IMG/VR virus record: IMGVR_UViG_2778261227_000005
Coordinates: 1 to 41,340 of that record
Direction: 5' to 3' (one strand)
Source of the DNA: a virus
Lineage: Duplodnaviria; Heunggongvirae; Uroviricota; Caudoviricetes
DNA length: 41,340 nucleotides
Both the position numbers and the translations under genes were made by a program. The notes under the pieces were generated by a model, which was not told the DNA's origin, did no database searches, and worked only from the letters and a program-made list of their open reading frames with translations. This document shows, one piece after another, positions 49-19,468 of the stretch; the first letter of the stretch is position 1; every line of letters starts with the position of its first letter.

Positions 49-2802
49 TTAGTCTCCAGGATTCCCGGGGCGGTTCAGAATGACTAGTTGTTGCCAATAA
101 ATTCGTAGGTCAGGAGCCCCGTTAGCTAAGCCTTTACCAAATTCGACGCGATACGGCATTCCATCCCGCAAAAAAAGATTAGGGCACAACTCATCAAGTC
201 CATGGGAAGATACTGCAAATTCGTGCCCCAACTTGAAAGCTTTGGCACAAAGTATTTTCCTGATTTCACTGAATTTATTAGTTCCTTGGTGCTCATAATC
301 AGCATCTAGAGCCCAAAAATCGCGCCTATTACTGAGTACATAAGCCATGATTGCCGAAACCAAGTCTTTAGGTTCTAATTCTCGTTCCAATGTCACAAGT
401 ATTTCCGGCAATGGTTCTACGTCTTCGTTATCTTTTCTTTTTGTATGGAAAAAGTAGATTGTTGAGCGGACAGCTTTCCAGCCTTCACCCCAAGGGCGAT
501 GGGCATGTAACTTACGAGCCGCATCAATTAATTTTGACCTTATTCCTCCATGACGCCAAATCCAGCGAAATTTATCAGCCAAGATCCGCCTGGCATCATC
601 TTCAAGCTCGGGCACTCCTGAGGTTCCTAATCTCACCAAAATATCGATGAAGGCGAATAGCCACGCAACAAGTTCATCGTAACTGGGTCGAAATCCATAA
701 TCTCTTGGCCTAGCACCAAACTCATTAATTCCGAATCCTGTCCACGGAGGTCCGCCGAGAGCAGTTTCAAGCATTTCGATCCCCATCCTTCTACGTTCGG
801 CCATACTTGAATCAATGCATTCATTCATGATCGCAACACGTTGTTCTAAAGAGGCATGGGTACCGGATAGATAAGGTTGGAAAAACCTCTTTATCTTATT
901 TCGAGCCGAATCATAATTATTGCTCGCGCTTTCCTGGTCTGCGATACGGATTAAGAGCTTAATGCATCGTTCAAAGTATTTCGATTCATATGCAAGTAAC
1001 TGCAACAATTTGATAATTGCTGTTCGTTGTGGGTTGTAGCGTGATTTAAAATGCTCAAAATTAGACGTAACAAGCGTTTCTTCAATCCTCTCAAGCAAAG
1101 TTCCTGGGGCAACTGGAGCGATATAATTTAGAATGCGTGTCGATACATCATCTAGGTCTATTATTTTTCCAAGCAGCCCTTCGGGCTGTAACCAAGCTTC
1201 AACAATCTCTTTAGCCACAGCATGGCTATGCAATAGTCCCAACCTGTGCGCGAACGACATCAATAATCGTTGCCGATCCGGAGCTTCAAAGGTCGTTCTA
1301 AGTTGATCAATCGGAATACTATTAAGTGCAGATGCTGCCAACTTGTTAGCAATGGCATGGGGAAGGATGGCTCTCCAGTGGGATCTTTTCTGAACAATGT
1401 GACGTTCCATCAACTTCGTAACAGCTTTGAATAACTGGATTTTGGGATACCCAGAGAGCACACCCAATATTTCCAGTTCATCGGTAGCTGCATCTGGACT
1501 AGATATCGAGAACGAATACACCAGTGACAATATTTCAGCTTGCTCCCGTAAATGGCCGTCGGGATGATTACGTTGTTCAAACAAGCGATTAAACAACTGC
1601 GCATCTGAAAGTAGGGCTAAACTCTCACCTTCTTCCACTCTTTCCGCTATAGCCAAAGCCACTCTTGCATTCCCATCTGCGAACTCTGCAATCCGACGGG
1701 CATTATTCTGACCAATAGAAGGGAAGCGACGGATAAGAAGTTGCTCTGCCACGTCTGGACCATCTGTCTCAATGTGGATGACCTCAGTTGTCTGTGGTTT
1801 GTCATCCCTAATGTCGTACTCGATCGTGATGAGACTTACTTCTTTCCCTGCGGCTGATACTTTGCTGGCAAGCGAAGCATGGAGTTCTGATGGGCAATTA
1901 TCAAGGATCATAATTGCTCGCCGGCCTTCAGCGAGCAGGTTATCAAGCATTGCTGTAGCCGACGGTACTGGCTCATAGCCAGTATCAACATAAATAGCTA
2001 CTGTTCGGTCAAGCGCATCTGTTCCAACAGTTTCATCAAAGAGCGCCTGAACGATTCGAGTCTTCCCAACACCAGACAATCCTGTAATACGAACAGCCTT
2101 GTTTGTCGAACGGATCAGTGCTCGCATTGGGTTAATTGCTTCATCAATTTTGAGTTTTTGCCCCTTTCCCGATGGTAAAGTAATGGTTACGCCTGGGGCT
2201 GAGATTAAAGTGTCTATAACACCTTGTGGTGGATTGCTCCAGGCTCCGTAGGGTTGCCAACCGGAATACCCTTGCCCAAGCTTTGCTTTTACCCACAGCA
2301 TGACTGATGGATGTTGGCGCAACCATTGGATGAGTTTGGAGCGGTCGTAGAAATCAAGATGAAGATAACTTTCGTTAGGATCATCTTTTACTGCATCCCT
2401 CATCGCTTTGAGACGATCCTTCTTTCCTGACGGCGAGCAATCATCACCCAGGCTGACAATGATGTAACTGCCTTGCTTTCTGGCTTGTTCAGAAATGATG
2501 GGAGAAAGTGCTTTGCCGGTGCCAATTTCCCTCTCAATTGCAGACTTAGGCATCTTATGTTTCTTTGCCTGAAAGACCGTATCAGGTCTTACAAGAAAGC
2601 CTGCTTTCAGTTGATCAATTGGAACCTGAACATGGATGTCAATTCCTCCGTCAGGGGCTGTAATTGAACCAGACCAATTTACACATGCTGGGCTATGGCC
2701 GTGCATTGCCACTTCAGCTTCTGCTAGCCGAGCGATCAGCTCTTCCAGCTGGATATCGGAGAGCCGAAGTAATTCGTCCTTTTCAATGTCAAAGATTGCC
2801 AC
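49..2802 (-). CDS. Mrr-like PD-(D/E)xK nuclease domain fused to P-loop NTPase with helical C-terminal region (917 aa); candidate STAND/Avs-like antiviral protein
   Basis: Uninterrupted 917-codon ORF. N-terminus has Mrr-type motifs (APDGGIDIHV ... VFQAKKHK), central Walker A GLSGVGKT and Walker B-like AIMILDNC, long C-terminal region with no motif I recognise. AT-richer than the prophage core. Family call from motif recall only. Confidence 0.7.
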   Translation of the reverse strand: MAIFDIEKDELLRLSDIQLEELIARLAEAEVAMHGHSPACVNWSGSITAPDGGIDIHVQVPIDQLKAGFLVRPDTVFQAKKHKMPKSAIEREIGTGKALSPIISEQARKQGSYIIVSLGDDCSPSGKKDRLKAMRDAVKDDPNESYLHLDFYDRSKLIQWLRQHPSVMLWVKAKLGQGYSGWQPYGAWSNPPQGVIDTLISAPGVTITLPSGKGQKLKIDEAINPMRALIRSTNKAVRITGLSGVGKTRIVQALFDETVGTDALDRTVAIYVDTGYEPVPSATAMLDNLLAEGRRAIMILDNCPSELHASLASKVSAAGKEVSLITIEYDIRDDKPQTTEVIHIETDGPDVAEQLLIRRFPSIGQNNARRIAEFADGNARVALAIAERVEEGESLALLSDAQLFNRLFEQRNHPDGHLREQAEILSLVYSFSISSPDAATDELEILGVLSGYPKIQLFKAVTKLMERHIVQKRSHWRAILPHAIANKLAASALNSIPIDQLRTTFEAPDRQRLLMSFAHRLGLLHSHAVAKEIVEAWLQPEGLLGKIIDLDDVSTRILNYIAPVAPGTLLERIEETLVTSNFEHFKSRYNPQRTAIIKLLQLLAYESKYFERCIKLLIRIADQESASNNYDSARNKIKRFFQPYLSGTHASLEQRVAIMNECIDSSMAERRRMGIEMLETALGGPPWTGFGINEFGARPRDYGFRPSYDELVAWLFAFIDILVRLGTSGVPELEDDARRILADKFRWIWRHGGIRSKLIDAARKLHAHRPWGEGWKAVRSTIYFFHTKRKDNEDVEPLPEILVTLERELEPKDLVSAIMAYVLSNRRDFWALDADYEHQGTNKFSEIRKILCAKAFKLGHEFAVSSHGLDELCPNLFLRDGMPYRVEFGKGLANGAPDLRIYWQQLVILNRPGNPGD

Positions 2803-3269: not shown

Positions 3270-6200
3270 ATGAAATGGATAAAAGCACTTAACCTTCAGC
3301 AATGGGCAGATTCTATTCCTGCAAAAGTTATTTTTCCAGCACTAATCGCTGATCTTATACGTGCAACGGCTAACAGTATTACTGAAATTAGATTTCCTAA
3401 TGGTGATAAGGGACAGGTTAGAGGTTATGACGGTGTACTTAAAGCCGAGGGGGTGGCCCCCTATGTTCCTGATGGCGACTCATTCTGGGAATTTGGTGTT
3501 AATGAAAAATTGCTTGATAAAGCTAACTTTGATTACGAAAAAAGAACACGCGAAGTTGCTCCAGAGATACGTCTAAAGACTACTTTTGTTTTCGCTTCAT
3601 TAAGAACATGGGATAATCCTAAGGTAAAGCTTGAAGACTGGCTACAAGAGAAACGCAATAGTGGTAAGTGGAAAGACATCAAATTAATTGATGGTTCTAT
3701 GCTTGAAGATTGGCTCGGTGTTTGCCCTGCTGTAGCTGCTTACTACGCTCGCTACCATCTTGAGCTAATGCCACAGGTTGGTGTTAGAAGCATTAAGGAG
3801 TTTTGGGATGAATTTTCCACTAAATTTAATCCCCCTTTAACTGAAGCAGTCTTGCTGGCGGGGAGAGAAAAGCAAAAAGAGCGTTTTCTGAATGAGTTAC
3901 GAGAAAATGGTCGAAAAATATCTTTAGCTGCAGATTCTCCGGATGAGGTTATTGCTTTTGCGATTGCAGCTATCAGAACCACTGAAGCGGAACTTCGACA
4001 TTCCTTTCAAAGTCGAGCACTAATTATTGATACGGATGATGCTGCAAGACAGCTTTCTGGAAAAAGAGGAATGATCTTCTTACCACGTGATCGAGCAAGA
4101 GCTTTAGCCGGTTTATTACAGCAAGCATCTATCACAGTAGTAAGTGCCGGAGCCGATGAAACACGAACTGATCACGAACTTCTGATCCGCCCAGATAGTA
4201 TATCTTTAGGTAAGGCTCTTGAATCTATGGGGTTTGATTCAGATAAAAGTTATCAAATAGCGCGGCAGTGTGGCCGAAGTTTGTCTGTTTTGGCTCGCCA
4301 GATATCAAGTAGCACGGCTGAATCACCTGAATGGAAAGACAGCCCTGAGTTGCTCCCTGCTTTATTAGCTGGTGCATGGAGTACATGTTCAGAGAAAGAT
4401 AAGTTAATTCTCAAGCAACTAGCTGGCTATACAGACTATTCTCAAGTTGAAAATCCATTAAGGCTATTAACAAAGCGCCGCGATTCTCCAATTGACCGAG
4501 TAGATGATATTTGGTCATTGCGTTCGTCGGTAGATGCTTTTGTACATTTAGGCTATTTGCTGGGTGAAGAACACCTGGAGCGTTTTGAGAAGGCCGTAAG
4601 AGAGGTTTTTTCCTATATTCCTGAACCACCAAAGGCCGAAGATCTGTTTGTACCTGACAATGGTATTAAAACGTCTTATAGCTCGTGGTTACGTAATGGA
4701 ATGACAACAGTTTTGCTACATATGGCAATATTACATGAACAGGCCGAATTCCGGGTTACTGGTATGACACCCCAAGATTTTGTTAACAAAATAGTTCAGA
4801 GTATTCCGGGACTTGCTAACGACCATCGACTATTTGTTAGTTTGCGAGATCAACTTCCGCTGCTGGCAGAAGCTGCCCCTGGCCCTTTCCTTGATGCCCT
4901 TGAGCAATTGCTTAAGGGCAATGGGGAAATGATTGCTCCAATATTCAATGAAGATAAAGGGCTGTTAACTCCTCGAAGTCATTATCATGGATTAAAATGG
5001 GCATTGGAAGCCTTGGCTTGGGAACAAACATATCTATTACGCGCTGCAATCTGTCTTGCAAAACTCGCTGTAATAGATCCCGGAGGAACTTACTCAGATC
5101 GCCCTCTTAATAGTTTAAGAACCATTTTTCTGGCATGGTCTCCTAATACATGGGCACCAGTAAAAGTTAGAAATGCAATTATAAAAAAAATTATCACTAT
5201 TGTTCCTAGTATTGGGTGGAGTTTGTTACAAAATCTCCTTCCTCGCTCCCATGATACCTCTGATCAAAACCAAAAAATGAAGTTCAGAGAGTCGGATAAA
5301 GATGTAGAAAAACTAACGTGGGGCGTTGTTTGGGAGGGGCAAATCTTTATTATCCAAGAAGCAATTAAACTTGCAGGTATACTCCCAACAAGATGGGAAA
5401 TCCTAATCTCTCATTTAAGCTCATTCCCTGAGAATGCAATAGATGAAACACTTTCTCATCTTGAACTTTGCCTTTCTCAACAAACTGAAGAGGATCAGTT
5501 CATCGTATGGGAGGCTTTGCGTCATGAGTATTCTCGCCATAAAAAATATTCAGATGCGAACTGGGCATTTAAATTTGAGTCTATGGAAAAAATAGCGAAA
5601 ATACTTGATAATTATAAACCAATTGACATGGTTAGAGCCAGTTTATGGATTTTCAATGATTGGGATTCTGATATTGAAGAGTCAATTGAAAATGCTGGCG
5701 GAATTTTTTCTTCTGTCGAAGAAATGCGAAGTGAAAAACTTAGGGAAATATACTTTACTTTAGGTTTGTCTGGGGTGAAAGACCTTTTTCAACAAGTTAA
5801 TAATGTTTTTATTGCAGCAAGGCATATATCAGCACTCTCGTTGGATGAAGAAAAATTAAATGATTTGTTTGTAATGCTTATTAACAACAAAAAAAATATT
5901 GATGAAGTTTGTGGGTTGTTAATGCAATATGGTGTTGAATGCTTTGGTGCTGAATGGCTTAATAAAATAAAAGTGTATTTTAAACAGTTTAAAATTACCC
6001 CTGATAGGGCTGGGAAAATCTTAGCATCGTTAAGAGACTCACAAGAGATATGGAGCATTATTGAAGGGTTTGAAGATAACATCAACGAAAAATATTGGTT
6101 GCAAAAACAACCCATTGCAATGATGGGTAAAACTTCGGATTTATTTGTTCTTATGGATAAATATATAGAAAGGGGCCGGGGTCTTGCTGCTATTATATCA

Positions 6201-7016
6201 GCAAATCAACGCCTTTCTGAGATTCCATCTACAACACTTTTATATCTTCTAGATATAGTCGTTAAAGAAATAAATAGCCAGGATATCCAATTTGATACAA
6301 TGCTATCGTACTATGTAAAAAAAGTTTTTGATGAACTCAAACAACGTAACGATGTTTCTGAAACAGATTTGGCATTTAAAGAAATGACCTACTTGCCTTG
6401 TTTTCCGGATAGCGATGAGCCACTTATCCTGCATCGTCTAATGATGAAAAAGCCAGAGGTTTTTATAGAAGCAATATGTATTGTATATCGTAGTGACGAA
6501 GATGAACAAACAGAACCATCGGAGTTGGAAGTTAAAAGAGCTACTTCTATATACAGATTACTTGAAAAATTACGAATACTACCAGGGCAGATAGACAATG
6601 AAATTGATCAAGATAAACTTGAAGATTGGTGTGAGAATGTACGCCATTTAGCAAAATTGCATCATCGCCAAGAAATCACTGATCATGTAATAGGAAAAAT
6701 TCTGGCACATGCCCCTAATAGCTCAGTAGATAATTCCTGGCCACATGAAGCAATTCGGCACATCATTGAAATATTATCTTCTGATGAGTTAGAGCAAGGT
6801 ATACAAATTGGTAGGTACAATAAAAGGGGGGTATTTGCTCGTATGCGTTACGAAGGTGGAAACCAAGAAAGGATATTAGCTGAGCAGTACCGAGAATGGG
6901 CAAATTCAATGCCCCACTGCGTCCGTACTTCTGCAATGCTATTTAGAATCGCTGACGAATGGGAATACTCAGCAAAAAACGCAGATATTCGAGCCGCAAA
7001 GGCTGATTTAAAATAG
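3270..7016 (+). CDS. Large hypothetical protein (1248 aa), no recognisable catalytic motif; candidate defence-island cargo
   Basis: Single 1248-codon ORF, strongly AT-rich, GGTGGAG RBS-like sequence upstream of ATG 3270. No Walker A (GxxxxGK[ST]) or helicase motif found on reading. Divergent from the 917-aa gene across a 467-bp AT-rich spacer. Confidence 0.8.
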   Translation: MKWIKALNLQQWADSIPAKVIFPALIADLIRATANSITEIRFPNGDKGQVRGYDGVLKAEGVAPYVPDGDSFWEFGVNEKLLDKANFDYEKRTREVAPEIRLKTTFVFASLRTWDNPKVKLEDWLQEKRNSGKWKDIKLIDGSMLEDWLGVCPAVAAYYARYHLELMPQVGVRSIKEFWDEFSTKFNPPLTEAVLLAGREKQKERFLNELRENGRKISLAADSPDEVIAFAIAAIRTTEAELRHSFQSRALIIDTDDAARQLSGKRGMIFLPRDRARALAGLLQQASITVVSAGADETRTDHELLIRPDSISLGKALESMGFDSDKSYQIARQCGRSLSVLARQISSSTAESPEWKDSPELLPALLAGAWSTCSEKDKLILKQLAGYTDYSQVENPLRLLTKRRDSPIDRVDDIWSLRSSVDAFVHLGYLLGEEHLERFEKAVREVFSYIPEPPKAEDLFVPDNGIKTSYSSWLRNGMTTVLLHMAILHEQAEFRVTGMTPQDFVNKIVQSIPGLANDHRLFVSLRDQLPLLAEAAPGPFLDALEQLLKGNGEMIAPIFNEDKGLLTPRSHYHGLKWALEALAWEQTYLLRAAICLAKLAVIDPGGTYSDRPLNSLRTIFLAWSPNTWAPVKVRNAIIKKIITIVPSIGWSLLQNLLPRSHDTSDQNQKMKFRESDKDVEKLTWGVVWEGQIFIIQEAIKLAGILPTRWEILISHLSSFPENAIDETLSHLELCLSQQTEEDQFIVWEALRHEYSRHKKYSDANWAFKFESMEKIAKILDNYKPIDMVRASLWIFNDWDSDIEESIENAGGIFSSVEEMRSEKLREIYFTLGLSGVKDLFQQVNNVFIAARHISALSLDEEKLNDLFVMLINNKKNIDEVCGLLMQYGVECFGAEWLNKIKVYFKQFKITPDRAGKILASLRDSQEIWSIIEGFEDNINEKYWLQKQPIAMMGKTSDLFVLMDKYIERGRGLAAIISANQRLSEIPSTTLLYLLDIVVKEINSQDIQFDTMLSYYVKKVFDELKQRNDVSETDLAFKEMTYLPCFPDSDEPLILHRLMMKKPEVFIEAICIVYRSDEDEQTEPSELEVKRATSIYRLLEKLRILPGQIDNEIDQDKLEDWCENVRHLAKLHHRQEITDHVIGKILAHAPNSSVDNSWPHEAIRHIIEILSSDELEQGIQIGRYNKRGVFARMRYEGGNQERILAEQYREWANSMPHCVRTSAMLFRIADEWEYSAKNADIRAAKADLK

Positions 7017-15003: not shown

Positions 15004-15312
15004 TTATAAACGACTACCTGAAATGACACGTTGGTTGATTTCGTTAATACGATCCTGCGCTCGTGCCATCTCGTTACTGTGAGCCATGGCGATCTGCAGT
15101 AACTGGATGCCCGGTGCAAAACGTCCATTCTCCAGTTTCAGGGCCAGCCCTTCTTCAATGAGGGTGTTGAGTGCCCGATTAATGTTTGCTGGTGACTCGT
15201 GCAGTGCTGCCGCCAGTTCACCGTTGGAGATACCGTTCAGAGCGTGGCCACGTAACGCCTTAAGAACACGCAAAATACGGGTACCTGCGCTTGATGTATT
15301 TGGTTTATTCAT
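15004..15312 (-). CDS. Winged-helix DNA-binding protein (102 aa)
   Basis: RILRVLKALRGHALNGISNGELAAALHESPANINRALNTLIEEGL is HTH-like; overlaps ner by 4 nt. Confidence 0.65.
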   Translation of the reverse strand: MNKPNTSSAGTRILRVLKALRGHALNGISNGELAAALHESPANINRALNTLIEEGLALKLENGRFAPGIQLLQIAMAHSNEMARAQDRINEINQRVISGSRL

Positions 15313-15533
15313 GACACCTCCTTAAGGATACCGGGGGTAACTTCTTTACCTATTGCAACCGATAGATCTCGCAAAATCCGATAAGTCAAACGACCACGTG
15401 GTAGTTCACTTTTACCAGCCCAGCGACTGACTGCCTGTGTGACTGTTCGTGGCTCATAGCCTGCGTTAAGCGCGAACTGGCGCAAGCTACTGCCTCGTTC
15501 AACTAGTCGTGCCCGAACTTGTTGTTTATTCAT
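15309..15533 (-). CDS. ner: Ner/Nlp-family DNA-binding regulator
   Basis: 74 aa; LRQFALNAGYEPRTVTQAVSRWAGKSE...IGKEVTPGIL fits the Ner winged-HTH pattern; first gene of the leftward early operon, divergent from the repressor. Confidence 0.75.
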   Translation of the reverse strand: MNKQQVRARLVERGSSLRQFALNAGYEPRTVTQAVSRWAGKSELPRGRLTYRILRDLSVAIGKEVTPGILKEVS

Positions 15534-15561
15534 ATGCGGATAGTTCCAGTTGGGTTATCAT

Positions 15562-15581
15562 GTACTCAATATGAATAAATG
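15562..15581. promoter_or_regulatory. 20-bp perfect palindrome TGAATAAATGTACTTATTCA in the repressor/ner divergent region; candidate operator
   Basis: 7-bp arms TGAATAA/TTATTCA around ATGTAC; an ATGTACT half-site recurs just upstream (15550-15556). Confidence 0.4.
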
Positions 15582-15606
15582 TACTTATTCAAAATAAATA
15601 AATCAA

Positions 15607-16038
15607 GTGGAATTACGCAAAATGAATAACAAAGATGTTAACGCTGTGCTTTCCCGGTTAATGTCACTATTCCAAGCAGAGAATGATAGTGAGTTGGCAA
15701 GAGCGCTTAACGTCAACAGGCAGACACTTGCAAGTTGGAGGAAGCGTGATTCTGTGCCTTATGCAATTTGCATAAACATCGCAGAAGAAAAGGGGGTTTC
15801 TTTAGATTGGTTGCTAACAGGTAGAAAACAAGGTTTATCAAAAGAAGTAGACGTAACTCCGACGCAAGTGCAGTTTAGCCAAGCTGACCTTACTATGCTT
15901 GAGCTTTTAAAGCAGCTAGACCCCGAGGTTCGTAACGATCTTCTGCGAGGCGCTGCGGAAAAACAGCGAGTGATCGAGATGGAAAAACAACTGAAGGAAT
16001 TATCCGCAACGATTGAGCGGTTAAAAAATGTGGGTTAA
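15607..16038 (+). CDS. CI-like phage repressor (HTH, phage_CI_repr-type N-terminal domain)
   Basis: LARALNVNRQTLASWRKRDSVPYAICINIAEEKGVSLDWLLTG is typical of the phage CI-repressor HTH; divergent from ner. Frame opens with GTG at 15607; ATG at 15622 is an alternative start; no clear RBS, so possibly leaderless. Confidence 0.75.
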   Translation: MELRKMNNKDVNAVLSRLMSLFQAENDSELARALNVNRQTLASWRKRDSVPYAICINIAEEKGVSLDWLLTGRKQGLSKEVDVTPTQVQFSQADLTMLELLKQLDPEVRNDLLRGAAEKQRVIEMEKQLKELSATIERLKNVG

Positions 16039-16058
16039 TCTATTCCCAATGAGAACAA

Positions 16059-16089
16059 TTGACAAGGTTATCAAACCTCTTCGTTATAT
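16059..16089 (+). promoter_or_regulatory. Candidate sigma70-like promoter (TTGACA ... TTATAT, 19-nt spacer) upstream of the 297-aa gene
   Basis: TTGACA at 16059-16064 and TTATAT at 16084-16089; spacer is longer than optimal, so weak. Confidence 0.25.
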
Positions 16090-16160
16090 GCGCTGATTTA
16101 AACAGTAGGATGTGCTGTTTGCACTAACCATCTGAACTTTCCGCGTTAAGGATTAATCGT

Positions 16161-17054
16161 ATGAGTGGTGATGTGAGAAATTATCGTATTGAGTTTCATC
16201 AGCTATCGTTTAAGGCCACAGATCAGCTGGCAAATCTCGGAGATTCTTTTCAATCTGTAATTGATAAACAGAGCCCTTCCTCTTCAAACCATGAGGGTTT
16301 TACTAGAGAAATTTGGGGGTTGAAAAAACGCGCGGATGGTTCTTTTAGTGGAGAGTTGAGAAAATTTCGCAACTCGAACATTCCAGATAAAGGTGCACCA
16401 GGGAAACAGTCTACCCCTATTCCACTTGCCAAGGATGAAGGGATCATTGAGCGCAATTTCTTTGTATTCTATCCCCGAATCAATGTTATAGGTTGGCACT
16501 ATAATCATATGGCTTGTGGTATAAGCCGTTTTAGTGCATTTCTTTCAACTATCTTTGGTTCAAAGGTTAAGCCCGCACCTTTGCTGGAAAAAGATGCAAT
16601 CGCTAGGCTTATGAGAGGAGATGTCAAAATGAAAAAAATCCAGTTGACGATTCCTCGCCCCCGTAATCCTGAGTTTTACCCTGATACTGATTTCAGTCAA
16701 AAGACACTACAACTGCTTGGTGATGCAGGTGCCGATACAATGCAAATTGTAATGGGGATTAATACTCGCCGTGGCGATAGTGATGGTAGGCTTAAGCAGA
16801 ATATAAAATTTGCTATGCAAGAGTTAGTCGAGTTTGGGGCGAAAAAGGCTGTAATTGATGTGTTCGATGCTGATGGTGTTGTCCATCCTGTGGATTTGAT
16901 TGCCGAGCGTATTTCGTCCTATCAATCGGTGGTTACTGACGCTCGTTTCCCTCCAGCCGAAACCATGTACCGTCTAATCGATACTGCGTATGCTGAAAAC
17001 CGGGAGAGTATCAATGCATATATTGGAGAAGATGAACTCGGCCCTATTGCTTAG
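16161..17054 (+). CDS. Hypothetical soluble protein (297 aa); RexA-like by position and partner, not by demonstrated homology
   Basis: AT-rich ORF immediately downstream of the repressor on the same strand; overlaps the following 4-TM gene by 41 nt; no catalytic motif recognised. Confidence 0.75.
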   Translation: MSGDVRNYRIEFHQLSFKATDQLANLGDSFQSVIDKQSPSSSNHEGFTREIWGLKKRADGSFSGELRKFRNSNIPDKGAPGKQSTPIPLAKDEGIIERNFFVFYPRINVIGWHYNHMACGISRFSAFLSTIFGSKVKPAPLLEKDAIARLMRGDVKMKKIQLTIPRPRNPEFYPDTDFSQKTLQLLGDAGADTMQIVMGINTRRGDSDGRLKQNIKFAMQELVEFGAKKAVIDVFDADGVVHPVDLIAERISSYQSVVTDARFPPAETMYRLIDTAYAENRESINAYIGEDELGPIA

Positions 17055-17451
17055 TTTATTGATTGGATGTGGGATTGGTTTTCTCTACTGGTTCAAGTTG
17101 CCCCATATGCCAGTAGCCGCAATCCCAAACTTCATGACTACATTGTCCAGTGTCTTTGCAACGTTGTTAGGTTTTATTATTACAGCAATTGCACTACTTG
17201 CATCATTGCTTGATAAACCGTTACTTAAAAACATGCAAAAAACCGGACATTACAAGCGTCTGATGACCGATGCATTCTACACTTGCTTAGTTTTGCTAGT
17301 GTTGGTGTTGACATGTTTGATTGGGTTGATGCTGCAAAGTAAGCATCAAGAGATTGTAGCCGCTATCCTCATTGGGCTTGTTGTTATGTCTATGTTGTGT
17401 TTATTACAAACAGGTAGGCGATTATTCAATATAATCAAAGTGATATCATAA
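17014..17451 (+). CDS. Small 4-TM membrane protein (~146 aa); RexB-like by architecture
   Basis: Four hydrophobic segments (LLLSLLIGCGIGFLYWF; FATLLGFIITAIALLASLL; YTCLVLLVLVLTCLIGLML; IVAAILIGLVVMSMLCLL). Start chosen at ATG 17014 with GGGAGAG 5-7 nt upstream; the track ORF begins at 16990. Confidence 0.7.
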   Translation: MHILEKMNSALLLSLLIGCGIGFLYWFKLPHMPVAAIPNFMTTLSSVFATLLGFIITAIALLASLLDKPLLKNMQKTGHYKRLMTDAFYTCLVLLVLVLTCLIGLMLQSKHQEIVAAILIGLVVMSMLCLLQTGRRLFNIIKVIS

Positions 17452-17503
17452 CAATGCACCATCAGGTGCATTGTTATGCAAGACTACTTACCTCCTTCTG
17501 AGC

Positions 17504-18271
17504 CTACTCTAAATTACTTACAATAAGTTCGCGCCGTAGTGTTCCCTTTCCTGCAAGACTGTAGTTGACCTTCACACAGTGAATGTTCAGACCGTTAAAA
17601 ACCTGCCGCATTTCCGGGATATCGTTGACCGATATAATCATCTTTCCTCTGATGCAACGGGCCAGCTCTGCCAACCGCGAGTAGTTCCCTTCAGGAAAAT
17701 CCACACCATAGCCTTCCGTACCCAGGTACGGTGGGTCGCAGTAGAACAGCGTGTGCGGACGGTCATAACGCTCAATGCACTGTTGCCAGTCCATGTGTTC
17801 TATCACCGTTCTGGAAAGTCGCAGGTGTGCCGCTGAGAGCTCTTCCTCAATACGCAGCAGGTTGAAGCGTGGCGGGGATGTGGTGGAGGTGCCGAAACTA
17901 TGCTCTGCCACCTTGCCACCAAACGCCTGCTTCTGGAGGTAGTAGAACCGTGCTGCACGCTGGATATCCGTCAGGGTTTCCTCCGGGGTGATCTGCAGCC
18001 ATTTGTAGATCTGCCGGCTAACCAGCGCCCATTTGAACTGGCGGACAAATTCTTCTAGGTGATGCTTTACCACCCGATACAGATTTACCAGTTCACCGTT
18101 GATATCGTTAATGACTTCGATCTTACCTGGTGTCTTAAGAAAATAGAGCGCAGCTGCGCCGCAGAACGGCTCCACATAACATTCATGCGCTGGAAACAGC
18201 GGCAGAATGTGTTTTGCCAGGCGGCGTTTGCCCCCAATCCATGGAACGATGGGTAATGTCTGCATTTTCAT
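17504..18271 (-). CDS. dam: Dam-family N6-adenine DNA methyltransferase (D12 class), no cognate nuclease adjacent
   Basis: WIGGKRRL, motif I EPFCGAAALYF and motif IV DPPY in Dam-like order; 255 aa. Confidence 0.85.
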   Translation of the reverse strand: MKMQTLPIVPWIGGKRRLAKHILPLFPAHECYVEPFCGAAALYFLKTPGKIEVINDINGELVNLYRVVKHHLEEFVRQFKWALVSRQIYKWLQITPEETLTDIQRAARFYYLQKQAFGGKVAEHSFGTSTTSPPRFNLLRIEEELSAAHLRLSRTVIEHMDWQQCIERYDRPHTLFYCDPPYLGTEGYGVDFPEGNYSRLAELARCIRGKMIISVNDIPEMRQVFNGLNIHCVKVNYSLAGKGTLRRELIVSNLE

Positions 18272-18312
18272 AATCTGTAAGCCTTTTACAATTACTAAAA
18301 ATATGGCAGGCT

Positions 18313-18335: not shown

Positions 18336-18472
18336 GAACCTCGGTCGGCTCACAGCCACTTCTGTGGGACGATGGCCAGTCCGGCTTTCGGGTGCCGGGC
18401 TGGTCGTTCTTTCATGATGCGGCAGGAATGAAGTGATTTCTGTTAATGTGGTTTAGAGGATATCGGGGTGCT

Positions 18473-18967
18473 ATGGATACAAACGCTTTATTAACAGCTC
18501 TTGGCTATATCAGCAGTACTGCTCAGAAAATAATAAAAGAGCGTGATCAAATAAAACAGGCCGCTTTGACCAGTGAATTACAGAGTAAAATTATTGAAGC
18601 ACAGGGGCAGTTCTTTGAGGTAACGAGCAAGCTAGGAGAACAGCAAAAAACCATTACCAATCTGGAAGAGAAAATTCGCTCTCTGGAAGACCTTCTTAAC
18701 TTTCGCGGTAATTATAAACTGACGTTACTGAGTGAAGAAAAAGGCTTCTATGCTTATCGTTATACGGGAAACGATGAAACTGAACATTATATTTGCCAGA
18801 CTTGTTTTGATTCCAAAAACCTGAAAAGTATCCTGCGTATACGGAAAGACAGTTTTTGCATGTGTCCGGTTTGTGGTCAAAACAGTGCTGTATGGTTGAA
18901 AGGAGAGCCAAATCCAGTTCGTATCAGGTCTCGTAAGAGGGATGACTTCTATGATGGTTTTATCTAG
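18473..18967 (+). CDS. Coiled-coil protein with C-terminal zinc ribbon (~164 aa), unknown function
   Basis: AT-rich ORF; Cys cluster CQTCF ... CMCPVCG; predicted coiled coil in the N-terminal half. Start at ATG 18473 (track ORF begins at 18446). Confidence 0.6.
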   Translation: MDTNALLTALGYISSTAQKIIKERDQIKQAALTSELQSKIIEAQGQFFEVTSKLGEQQKTITNLEEKIRSLEDLLNFRGNYKLTLLSEEKGFYAYRYTGNDETEHYICQTCFDSKNLKSILRIRKDSFCMCPVCGQNSAVWLKGEPNPVRIRSRKRDDFYDGFI

Positions 18968-19042: not shown

Positions 19043-19468
19043 TTACTTTTCTGTAGATTTAATAACCTTACATAATTCCATTAAAACCAGCTCCTGATCG
19101 TATAATACGAACAATGCAGCAATTGCGGCATGTACAGCATCGGGCAGTATCCAGGGGTTCTTGCCTTCGGGACATATAACTTCCAGCAGTGCATTCGTCA
19201 GGCAAATGCGCTCTTCACTATATGATAGAGTTACCCGCTCAGTGTATTCTTCCAGTCGGATAATTGTACCTGCCCGTGGTTTCTGCCATGTGCTCAGATC
19301 ATCCCCACTCATACGGCGCTCATTCTCCACGTCAGCAGCATCGACAATGACGCTGTTTCCGGGTTCCTGTTTCACCATCTCTTCTATCCGCGCCAGTACG
19401 TAACTTTTACCGCTGCCCACAGGACCGGACACGGTGACAGTGATGACCGGATTCAGTGTCTGCGTCAT
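19043..19468 (-). CDS. Small P-loop protein (141 aa), unknown function
   Basis: Walker A VSGPVGSGKSY near the N-terminus; no other motif recognised; convergent with the zinc-ribbon gene. Confidence 0.6.
   Translation of the reverse strand: MTQTLNPVITVTVSGPVGSGKSYVLARIEEMVKQEPGNSVIVDAADVENERRMSGDDLSTWQKPRAGTIIRLEEYTERVTLSYSEERICLTNALLEVICPEGKNPWILPDAVHAAIAALFVLYDQELVLMELCKVIKSTEK

What the first reader, a model, noticed from the sequence alone, without database searches (positions are those of the whole stretch)
16059..17451. Repressor-linked two-gene module with lambda cI-rexA-rexB-like architecture inside a transposable prophage
Directly downstream of the CI-like repressor, on the same strand, sit a 297-aa soluble protein and a 146-aa protein with four predicted TM helices whose genes overlap by 41 nt. 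This mirrors lambda, where rexA (soluble, ~279 aa) and rexB (~144 aa, 4 TM) are co-transcribed with cI in lysogens and cause abortive infection by membrane depolarisation. The module is AT-rich against a GC-richer phage core. I could not establish sequence homology to RexA or RexB from memory, so this may be a distant or analogous exclusion system in a Mu-like phage.
Basis: partly seen in the sequence, partly recalled or inferred. Interest (0 to 1): 0.8.

Follow-up and report, generated by a model that had tools for sequence, protein, structure and literature searches.

The report
RexAB-like exclusion module in Mu-like prophage
Just downstream of the repressor of a Mu-like E. coli prophage sit two overlapping accessory genes, a soluble protein whose predicted fold best matches phage lambda RexA and a four-helix membrane protein built like RexB, so this is most likely another member of the known RexAB-type phage-exclusion systems.

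Summary
A CI-type repressor (15622-16038) is followed on the same strand by a 297-aa gene (16161-17054) and a 145-aa four-helix membrane gene (17014-17451). The two genes overlap by 41 nt, and the module is 42% GC against 54-56% in the phage core.

- **Protein B:** it matches RexB in length, pI, helix positions and basic central loop, and shows weak profile similarity that exceeds controls.
- **Family models:** neither protein hits the Pfam or PADLOC RexA/RexB models. A is a divergent member of DUF6731.
- **Pairing:** the A-B pair is strictly conserved. 24 of 25 loci found through B motifs carry A just upstream.
- **Distribution:** the family is widespread (1,048 clusters), and the pair often lies behind prophage repressors.
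- **Accessory status:** only 23 of 5,426 E. coli genomes carry the region, and related prophages have nothing or other cargo in the slot.

Function (abortive infection by membrane damage) is inferred, not shown. The family is probably the published RexAB-like "Sucellos" system, but I could not obtain its sequence. Verdict: a new member of a known kind, of moderate interest.

The parts
15525..15631 (.). Candidate operator repeats in the divergent control region between the ner-like gene (15309-15533, -) and the repressor
   Evidence: Three copies of TAYTCAAWATGAATAAAT at 15563, 15586 and 15614, plus a perfect 11-nt inverted repeat at 15525-15535 / 15569-15579. Their function is inferred.
15622..16038 (+). 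CI-type repressor (138 aa from ATG 15622; the ORF opens at GTG 15607)
   Evidence: PF07022 Phage_CI_repr at 1.2e-17. It also hits PHROG transcriptional repressor families. PGAP uses the start equivalent to 15622.
16039..16160 (+). 122-nt spacer between the repressor and gene A, with TTGACA at 16059-16064 and SD-like AAGGA at 16148-16152
   Evidence: The scan finds no terminator-like and no promoter-like site on the + strand. The fold is no more stable than shuffles, z -0.67. Sequence read. Read-through from the repressor promoter is therefore possible but unproven.
16161..17054 (+). Gene A: 297-aa soluble protein with a RexA-like fold, a divergent DUF6731 member and the presumed cytoplasmic sensor
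17014..17451 (+). Gene B: 145-aa four-TM inner-membrane protein, RexB-like and the presumed effector, overlapping A by 41 nt
   Evidence: TM segments lie at 9-27, 47-65, 89-107 and 113-131, and the central loop 66-88 holds 5 K/R. The AF2 model shows four long helices. hhalign against RexB gives P 0.0014. A RexB HMM scores up to 19.9 bits on the B family, well above controls. The conserved signature is TLLGFIITA...LDKPLLxNMxKTGHY.
17447..17478 (.). Perfect 14-bp stem-loop that starts inside the stop codon of B, between the convergent B and dam genes
   Evidence: RNA fold of -22.6 kcal/mol, z -5.0, and 0 of 200 shuffles fold as well. It has no U-run, so a terminator or RNA-stabiliser role is inferred.

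Best explanation
The module is a two-gene, prophage-borne phage-exclusion system of the RexAB type, carried as accessory cargo in the immunity region of a BcepMu-like transposable prophage.

- **Protein A** is a cytoplasmic protein with the RexA/RdgC fold. By analogy with RexA it is probably a dimeric, non-specific DNA-binding protein.
- **Protein B** is a small four-helix inner-membrane protein. Both termini and a basic, highly conserved central loop are predicted to face the cytoplasm.
- **Expression:** the pair is made in the lysogen, probably by read-through from the repressor promoter. The 41-nt gene overlap implies coupled translation and hence a fixed A:B ratio.
- **Proposed action:** when another phage infects, A senses an infection cue and activates B. 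B then permeabilises or depolarises the membrane, stopping growth of the infected cell and aborting the infection.

Shown here: the fold of A, the topology of B, the strict A-B pairing, the accessory status and the recurrent position behind repressors. Inferred from lambda RexAB, Sbash gp30/31, RexABpp and Sucellos: DNA binding, sensing, activation of B, membrane damage and exclusion.
For: **Fold of A**
- CENP-N/CHL4, RdgC, IML3 and 3oh8 follow. Adams et al. report the same neighbours for RexA (PMC11077077).

**B against RexB**
- They are 145 vs 144 aa, pI 9.55 vs 9.33, with TM positions 9/47/89/113 vs 8/49/84/116. Each central loop carries 5 K/R.
- hhalign aligns TM2 plus the loop (39-79 vs 41-80) at P 0.0014, against 0.019 for the reversed control.
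- A RexB HMM scores 21 of 74 family members at >=10 bits. Reversed sequences give 0 of 74 and local shuffles 8 of 740.
- The most conserved part of B is the TM2-TM3 loop. In Sbash gp31 this is the region where R70A and D73A abolish defence (PMC6426596).

**Pairing**
- 24 of 25 loci found only through B motifs have an A-family ORF immediately upstream on the same strand. Most show a 38- or 41-nt overlap.
- The same pairing is seen.

**Accessory status**
- The region is present in 23 of 5,426 E. coli genomes.
- The ST131-type relative has no cargo in the slot, and the AVS0747 relative has a different gene there.
- The same cassette also sits in the Q-lysis moron site of lambdoid prophages and in a CP4-like island.

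**Repressor linkage**
- An HTH+S24 or XRE regulator lies upstream on the same strand in L014-16, L018, L022, L029-31, L033, L034, L036 and L037.

**Published precedent**
- RexABpp and Sucellos are RexA-fold plus membrane-protein pairs in which both genes are needed for defence.
Against: - No sequence-level membership was found. Pfam RexA/RexB and PADLOC RexA/RexB do not hit A or B, although they hit lambda's proteins strongly.
- hhalign of the A family against RexA gives probability 2.4% and P 0.019. HMM scores there are <=6 bits.
- Foldseek against BFVD did not list lambda RexA or RexB among the top hits.
- The structural argument rests on a medium-confidence model (pLDDT 75.6), with 159 residues aligned at 5.5 A rmsd.
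- Small four-helix membrane proteins resemble each other easily.
- There is no expression or phenotype data.
- In mycobacteriophage Butters the roles of the two proteins are reversed, so the direction of control cannot be assumed.
Confidence: 0.7

Rival explanations
1. The pair mainly tunes the prophage's own lysogeny-lysis switch, as lambda RexA does when it binds DNA, CI and Cro and biases the switch to lytic growth. Exclusion of other phages would be minor or absent.
For: The pair sits directly behind the repressor next to operator-like repeats. The same placement recurs in many prophages. Lambda RexA has this second role independently of RexB (PMC11077077).
Against: The same cassette also occurs far from any repressor: in the Q-lysis region of lambdoid prophages on the opposite strand, in a CP4-like island, and next to an integrase in a Vibrio element. 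Most related BcepMu-like prophages do without it. A switch role does not explain the obligate membrane partner.
Confidence: 0.1
2. The pair is a Butters-like or toxin-antitoxin-like system with reversed roles. A would be the toxic or antiviral effector, and B would sequester it at the membrane until infection releases it.
For: For Butters gp30/gp31, the cytosolic RexA-like protein is the effector and the membrane protein restrains it (discussion of PMC12894663). Overlapping genes with coupled translation are typical of pairs that need fixed stoichiometry.
Against: In four of the five characterised Rex-like systems, and in Sucellos, the membrane protein is the effector and both genes are needed. 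The strongest conservation lies in B's cytoplasmic loop, as expected for a regulated effector.
Confidence: 0.1
3. It is not a defence system. A would be an RdgC-like modulator of recombination or replication used by the transposable phage, and B a membrane anchor or a lysis-timing protein.
Against: RexA scores clearly above RdgC (11.4 vs 7.4). The phage has its own holin-endolysin cassette at about 19.5-21.3 kb. The module is absent from most related prophages, so it cannot be needed for transposition or lysis. It also moves between unrelated element types.
Confidence: 0.07

Closest known systems
Phage lambda RexA/RexB (PF15969 / PF15968; PDB 8TWQ)
   Same: The gene order repressor -> soluble ~280-300-aa protein -> ~145-aa four-TM protein is on one strand. 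A's predicted fold is closest to RexA. B equals RexB in length, pI, helix layout and basic central loop. Both are accessory prophage cargo.
   Different: There is no detectable membership in the RexA or RexB sequence families. The genes overlap by 41 nt here, whereas lambda has a 15-nt gap. The repressor lacks an S24 domain. The host element is a BcepMu-like transposable phage, not a lambdoid one.
Sucellos SclA/SclB (V. cholerae superintegron cassette 68; bioRxiv 10.1101/2024.07.02.601686)
   Same: [quoted passage not shown] Both genes are required, it acts abortively, and homologues lie mostly in prophages, often in Salmonella. The window's family fits each point, and its 90% clusters are abundant in Salmonella.
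   Different: Sequence identity could not be tested because the SclA/SclB sequences were not obtainable. No Vibrio cholerae locus appeared in my scans. Sucellos has its own promoter and lies in an integron cassette.
RexABpp (PP_5643/PP_5644) of Pseudomonas putida prophage P1 (PMC12894663)
   Different: RexBpp has at least 181 residues, against 145 here. RexApp-His is 37.5 kDa, against 33.3 kDa here. The termini deduced from the published primers (MHRTATFV......VYNKQSRLMV) match none of my family members.
Actinobacteriophage Rex-like systems (Sbash gp30/gp31, CarolAnn gp44/gp43)
   Same: Each is a soluble protein plus a four-TM protein in which the central cytoplasmic loop is the conserved, functionally essential part. 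A 165-aa Sbash protein is the fourth-best BFVD structural match of B (probability 0.95, TM 0.53).
   Different: Their A proteins are 337-372 aa and share DUF4747 with RexA. The A family here shows no such hit. I did not verify that the Sbash BFVD hit is gp31.
RdgC recombination-associated protein (PDB 2OWL)
   Different: RdgC is a housekeeping chromosomal protein with no membrane partner, and it scores lower than RexA.

Membership tests
Lambda RexA family (Pfam PF15969, PADLOC RexA) | Significant match to the family's sequence profile | tested here: not met
   There was no hit for A at E<=0.1, and none of 132 family members hit RexA. hhalign gives probability 2.4% and P 0.019, and a RexA HMM scores <=6 bits. 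As a positive control, lambda RexA hits at 1e-97 and 9e-110.
Lambda RexA family (Pfam PF15969, PADLOC RexA) | Two-domain RexA/RdgC-like fold | tested here: met
Lambda RexA family (Pfam PF15969, PADLOC RexA) | Dimer that binds DNA non-specifically | not testable with these tools
   This needs a multimer or DNA-complex model, or EMSA and SEC-MALS.
Lambda RexB family (Pfam PF15968, PADLOC RexB) | Significant match to the family's sequence profile | tested here: inconclusive
   There is no library hit. Targeted tests give hhalign P 0.0014 on TM2 plus the loop. A RexB HMM scores up to 19.9 bits, with 28% of family members at >=10 bits against 0% for reversed and 1.1% for locally shuffled controls.
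Lambda RexB family (Pfam PF15968, PADLOC RexB) | About 144 aa, four TM helices, termini and a basic central loop on the cytoplasmic side | tested here: met
   Hydropathy and charge analysis of both proteins and the AF2 four-helix model.
Lambda RexB family (Pfam PF15968, PADLOC RexB) | Forms a channel and depolarises the membrane when activated | not testable with these tools
   This needs membrane-potential or permeability assays.
RexAB-type exclusion system (functional class) | Soluble RexA-fold gene immediately followed by the membrane partner, conserved as a pair | tested here: met
   24 of 25 loci found via B motifs have A directly upstream. The same holds.
RexAB-type exclusion system (functional class) | Accessory prophage cargo, not core to the phage | tested here: met
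   It is present in 23 of 5,426 E. coli genomes. Related prophages have an empty slot or different cargo.
RexAB-type exclusion system (functional class) | Expressed in the lysogen together with the repressor | tested here: inconclusive
   The genes share a strand, with a 122-nt gap, no terminator-like site and no convincing own promoter. There are no transcript data.
RexAB-type exclusion system (functional class) | Both genes required to exclude superinfecting phages | not testable with these tools
   This needs plaque assays with deletion mutants.
Pfam DUF6731 (PF20505) | Direct match of the window protein to the Pfam HMM | tested here: not met
   0 families at E<=0.1 for A and for its 99% relative P0001.
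Pfam DUF6731 (PF20505) | Homology to proteins that match the Pfam HMM | tested here: met
   Full-length homologues at 40-76% identity carry PF20505. A profile of A and its relatives retrieves 1,048 clusters. Of 132 sampled, 121 hit PF20505.
Sucellos (SclA/SclB) | Sequence similarity to V. cholerae N16961 SclA and SclB | not testable with these tools
   The sequences are not in any accessible collection or held supplement. NCBIfam has no model, and PADLOC v2.0.0 predates the system.
Sucellos (SclA/SclB) | Published description: RexAB-like predicted structure without the RexA/RexB Pfam match, two genes, mainly in prophages, often in Salmonella | tested here: met
   compared with the text. This is consistency only, not proof of membership.
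RexABpp (P. putida PP_5643/PP_5644) | Close similarity in size and sequence | tested here: inconclusive
   RexBpp has >=181 aa and RexApp is about 37 kDa, against 145 aa and 33.3 kDa here. The primer-derived termini are absent from my family set. The full sequences could not be fetched.
Kiwa (KwaA four-TM + KwaB DUF4868) | Match to KwaA/KwaB or DUF4868 profiles, with the membrane gene first | tested here: not met
   There are no PADLOC or Pfam hits. The gene order here is soluble gene first.

The most novel reading that the evidence does not exclude
The DUF6731 protein and its 145-aa partner would form a deeply diverged and by far the most widespread branch of the Rex superfamily. It has about 1,000 clusters at 50% identity, from Enterobacterales to Lachnospiraceae, Actinobacteria and archaeal MAGs. 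It would be distinct from both lambda-type RexAB and Sucellos, invisible to Pfam RexA/RexB, PADLOC and NCBIfam, and repeatedly captured behind prophage repressors. That would imply an ancient functional tie between the immunity switch and Rex-type exclusion.
Probability: 0.3. Interest if true: 0.55.

Novelty: new member of a known kind. Interest (0 to 1): 0.4.

Why it matters
- **Annotation:** it gives a fold-based functional lead for a large family of unknown function (DUF6731) and for its unnamed membrane partner. RefSeq calls both hypothetical, and it truncates the partner in this prophage.
- **Biology:** it shows that the lambda cI-rexA-rexB arrangement is not a lambda peculiarity. It recurs in Mu-like, lambdoid, Acinetobacter and betaproteobacterial prophages.
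- **Open question:** what RexA senses has been unresolved since Benzer's T4 rII work. Many natural A-B variants in tractable hosts could help identify triggers and the A-B interface, with the conserved TM2-TM3 loop of B as the obvious candidate.
- **Practical:** PADLOC v2 and NCBIfam miss the module, so prophage-encoded defence in E. coli and Salmonella is under-counted by those libraries.

Tried and rejected
**Library and sequence searches**
- Pfam, PADLOC and NCBIfam scans of A and B gave no informative hit. PHROGs gave only families of unknown function.
- A profile search of A against PDB sequences found nothing.
- hhalign of a 150-sequence A family against four RexA sequences gave a collinear but insignificant match, probability 2.4%.

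**Structure searches**
- Foldseek against BFVD found viral relatives of both proteins, but not lambda RexA or RexB.
- The afdb50 library was unavailable.

**Attempts to fetch P. putida rexApp**
- Primer-derived DNA gave 0 hits in viral contigs and genome contigs. The termini were absent from my protein set.

**Attempts to obtain Sucellos sequences**
- The held supplement is truncated to Table S1.
- The cluster look-up of Vibrio-like relatives returned unnamed metagenomic singletons.
- No Vibrio cholerae locus appeared in the genome scan.

**Other dead ends**
- The guessed Sbash accession KP027195 turned out to be phage Cosmo.
- No promoter conserved across contexts was found upstream of A.

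**Rejected readings**
- Kiwa: no KwaA/KwaB hits and reversed gene order.
- Holin or lysis function: the phage has its own lysis cassette and the module is dispensable.
- Core Mu-like function: the module is absent from most relatives.
Full report
**What is in the sequence**

The window carries a BcepMu-like (Bcepmuvirus-type) transposable prophage of E. coli. The region 15500-18300 is 99.8% identical to a prophage inserted in ygjJ of E. coli JB2. That prophage has a DDE transposase, Gam, GemA, Mor and Mu-type head and tail genes, and phage PhiKM is a sequenced relative.

Early genes run leftward from 15533: a ner-like gene, an IclR-type HTH gene, a DUF3102 gene and the transposase. A CI-type repressor runs rightward at 15607/15622-16038 and hits PF07022 at 1.2e-17. 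Between the two lie operator-like repeats.

After a 122-nt spacer come gene A (16161-17054, 297 aa) and gene B (17014-17451, 145 aa). They overlap by 41 nt, and an SD-like GGGAGAG lies before B's ATG.

The 17014 start is supported by homologues called at 144/145 aa and by an invariant M1 and L4 down to 35% identity. RefSeq starts B at 17107, giving 114 aa and removing the first helix.

A perfect 14-bp hairpin (17447-17478, z -5.0) begins inside B's stop codon and faces the convergent dam methylase gene. The module has 41.7% GC, against 54-56% in the phage core.

**What protein A is**

A has no direct hit in Pfam, PADLOC or NCBIfam. Its full-length homologues at 40-76% identity carry PF20505 (DUF6731). 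A profile of A and these homologues retrieves 1,048 clusters at 50% identity, nearly all single-domain proteins of about 290 aa. Of 132 sampled, 121 match DUF6731 and none match RexA. No paper in the searchable library mentions DUF6731.

- CENP-N/CHL4 (7.9), RdgC (7.4), IML3 (6.5) and the C. glutamicum epimerase 3oh8 (5.2) follow.
- These are the same structural neighbours that Adams et al. report for RexA itself (PMC11077077).

At sequence level the relationship is not demonstrable. hhalign gives a collinear 146-column alignment (88-256 vs 81-237), but with probability 2.4% and P 0.019. Lambda RexA as a positive control hits the Pfam and PADLOC RexA models at 1e-97 and 9e-110. So A works like, and very probably descends from, the RexA/RdgC fold family, but it is not a member of the RexA sequence family.

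**What protein B is**

| Feature | B | Lambda RexB |
|---|---|---|
| Length (aa) | 145 | 144 |
| Mass (kDa) | 16.1 | 16.0 |
| pI | 9.55 | 9.33 |
| Hydrophobic helices | 9-27, 47-65, 89-107, 113-131 | 8-26, 49-67, 84-102, 116-134 |
| Central loop K/R | 5 | 5 |

These values come, and the AF2 model shows four long helices.

The positive-inside rule puts both termini and the central loop in the cytoplasm. This is the topology proposed for RexB and Sbash gp31.

The most conserved part of the B family is the end of TM2 and that loop, TLLGFIITA...LDKPLLxNMxKTGHY. In Sbash gp31 the same loop is the conserved region, and R70A or D73A there abolish defence.

Library scans do not link B to RexB. Targeted tests give a weak but above-control signal.
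- hhalign aligns 39-79 with RexB 41-80 at P 0.0014, against 0.019 for reversed RexB.
- A four-sequence RexB HMM scores 21 of 74 family members at >=10 bits (top 19.9). Reversed sequences give 0 of 74, and locally shuffled sequences that keep the helix layout give 8 of 740.
- Foldseek against BFVD returns as best hit a protein of the same uncultured siphovirus whose A-like protein was A's best hit. Fourth is a 165-aa protein of mycobacteriophage Sbash. I did not verify that this hit is gp31.

**The pair is a conserved, mobile, accessory unit**

Searching one genome per species with only two B motifs gave 25 loci. They span Enterobacterales, Pseudomonas, Acinetobacter, several Betaproteobacteria, Lachnospiraceae, an actinomycete and archaeal MAGs. 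In 24 of them an A-family ORF lies immediately upstream on the same strand, usually with a 38- or 41-nt overlap.

The cassette occurs in very different elements:
- this Mu-like prophage;
- lambdoid prophages, between Q and the lysis genes on the opposite strand;
- a CP4-like island with CbtA/CbeA;
- Pseudomonas phage AUS531phi;
- a Vibrio Vinavirales-type element, next to the integrase.

Within E. coli only 23 of 5,426 complete genomes carry the region, while several hundred carry related prophages. The ST131-type relative has the repressor directly followed by dam. Strain AVS0747 has an unrelated 175-aa gene in the slot. The slot behind the repressor is thus a cargo site, and the pair is not a core phage function.

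**Repressor linkage recurs**

An HTH+S24 (CI/LexA-type) or XRE regulator lies upstream on the same strand in several independent lineages:
- P. putida prophages (L014-16, L029);
- phage AUS531phi (L018);
- three Acinetobacter loci (L030, L031, L037);
- three betaproteobacterial loci (L033, L034, L036);
- the Limnobaculum copy of this prophage (L022).

In the window, no terminator-like site separates the repressor from A. The only promoter-like element is a perfect TTGACA at 16059 without a usable -10. Co-transcription is therefore plausible but unproven.

**Most likely mechanism (confidence 0.7)**

By analogy with lambda RexAB, Sbash gp30/31, CarolAnn gp44/43, RexABpp and Sucellos:
- A is a cytoplasmic, probably dimeric DNA-binding sensor.
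- B is a latent membrane effector.
- An infection cue makes A activate B through B's cytoplasmic loop.
- The membrane is then depolarised or permeabilised, and the infected cell stops growing, which aborts the infection.
- The overlap of the genes suggests translational coupling that fixes the A:B ratio. Stoichiometry matters in lambda and in P. putida.

Shown here are the fold, topology, pairing, accessory status and genomic placement. All biochemical steps are inferred.

Rivals are a role in the prophage's own switch (0.1), a Butters-like reversal of roles (0.1), and a non-defence recombination or lysis role (0.07).

**Comparison with the literature**

A 2024 preprint describes Sucellos (SclA/SclB) from the V. 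cholerae superintegron. It is structurally RexAB-like, not matched by the RexA/RexB Pfam models, needs both genes, is abortive, and has homologues mostly in prophages, often in Salmonella. The present family fits that description and is abundant in Salmonella. I could not obtain SclA/SclB sequences to test identity. I estimate about two chances in three that this module would be called Sucellos by current DefenseFinder models.

**Verdict**

- It is a new member of a known kind rather than a new kind of system.
- New elements are the fold-based link between DUF6731 and RexA, the breadth and strict pairing of the family, its recurrent placement behind repressors in unrelated prophages, and a corrected start for gene B.
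- Interest is moderate (0.4).

Noticed in passing
window 49-2802 (-) and 3270-7016 (+): Just left of the prophage's Mor end lies a 917-aa ORF matching PADLOC PD-Lambda-4_A (1877 bits, profile positions 1-908 of 1283). Beside it is a 1248-aa ORF in a very AT-rich stretch (32-43% GC) with no Pfam, PADLOC or NCBIfam hit. This may be a defence island flanking the prophage.
   Followed up: partly
window 18446-18967 (+) and 19043-19468 (-): A second AT-rich variable patch lies between dam and the lysis genes. It holds a 173-aa coiled-coil/CxxC protein (phrog_1244) and a 141-aa P-loop protein (phrog_3787, which RefSeq calls 'ABC transporter ATPase').
   Followed up: no
L021:2661-3188 (E. coli AVS0747, NZ_CP124467): A related BcepMu-like prophage carries a different 175-aa gene with no Pfam or PADLOC hit in the same slot downstream of its repressor. 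This is a candidate alternative cargo gene.
   Followed up: partly
window 17014-17451 vs RefSeq WP_128915888 (start equivalent to 17107): PGAP annotates gene B as 114 aa, cutting off the first transmembrane helix. Homologue N-termini support the 145-aa form.
   Followed up: yes
window 15525-15631: Operator-like repeats lie between the ner-like gene and the repressor. There are three copies of an 18-nt motif and a perfect 11-nt inverted repeat.
   Followed up: partly
window 17447-17478: A perfect 14-bp hairpin starts within the stop codon of gene B, between the convergent genes. It has no U-run (z -5.0).
   Followed up: partly
L040, L042, L045, L046, L019: The A-B pair also occurs in a Methanobacteriaceae MAG, in Lachnospiraceae, in Nonomuraea (where A is split in two ORFs), and in a Vibrio Vinavirales-type element next to its integrase.
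   Followed up: partly
L003, L005 (lambdoid prophages of Scandinavium and E. marmotae): In NCBI assemblies the B gene next to DUF6731 is left uncalled. Logan assemblies of near-identical loci call a 144-aa gene there. Neighbours include HicAB, a GmrSD-like protein and Hok.
   Followed up: no
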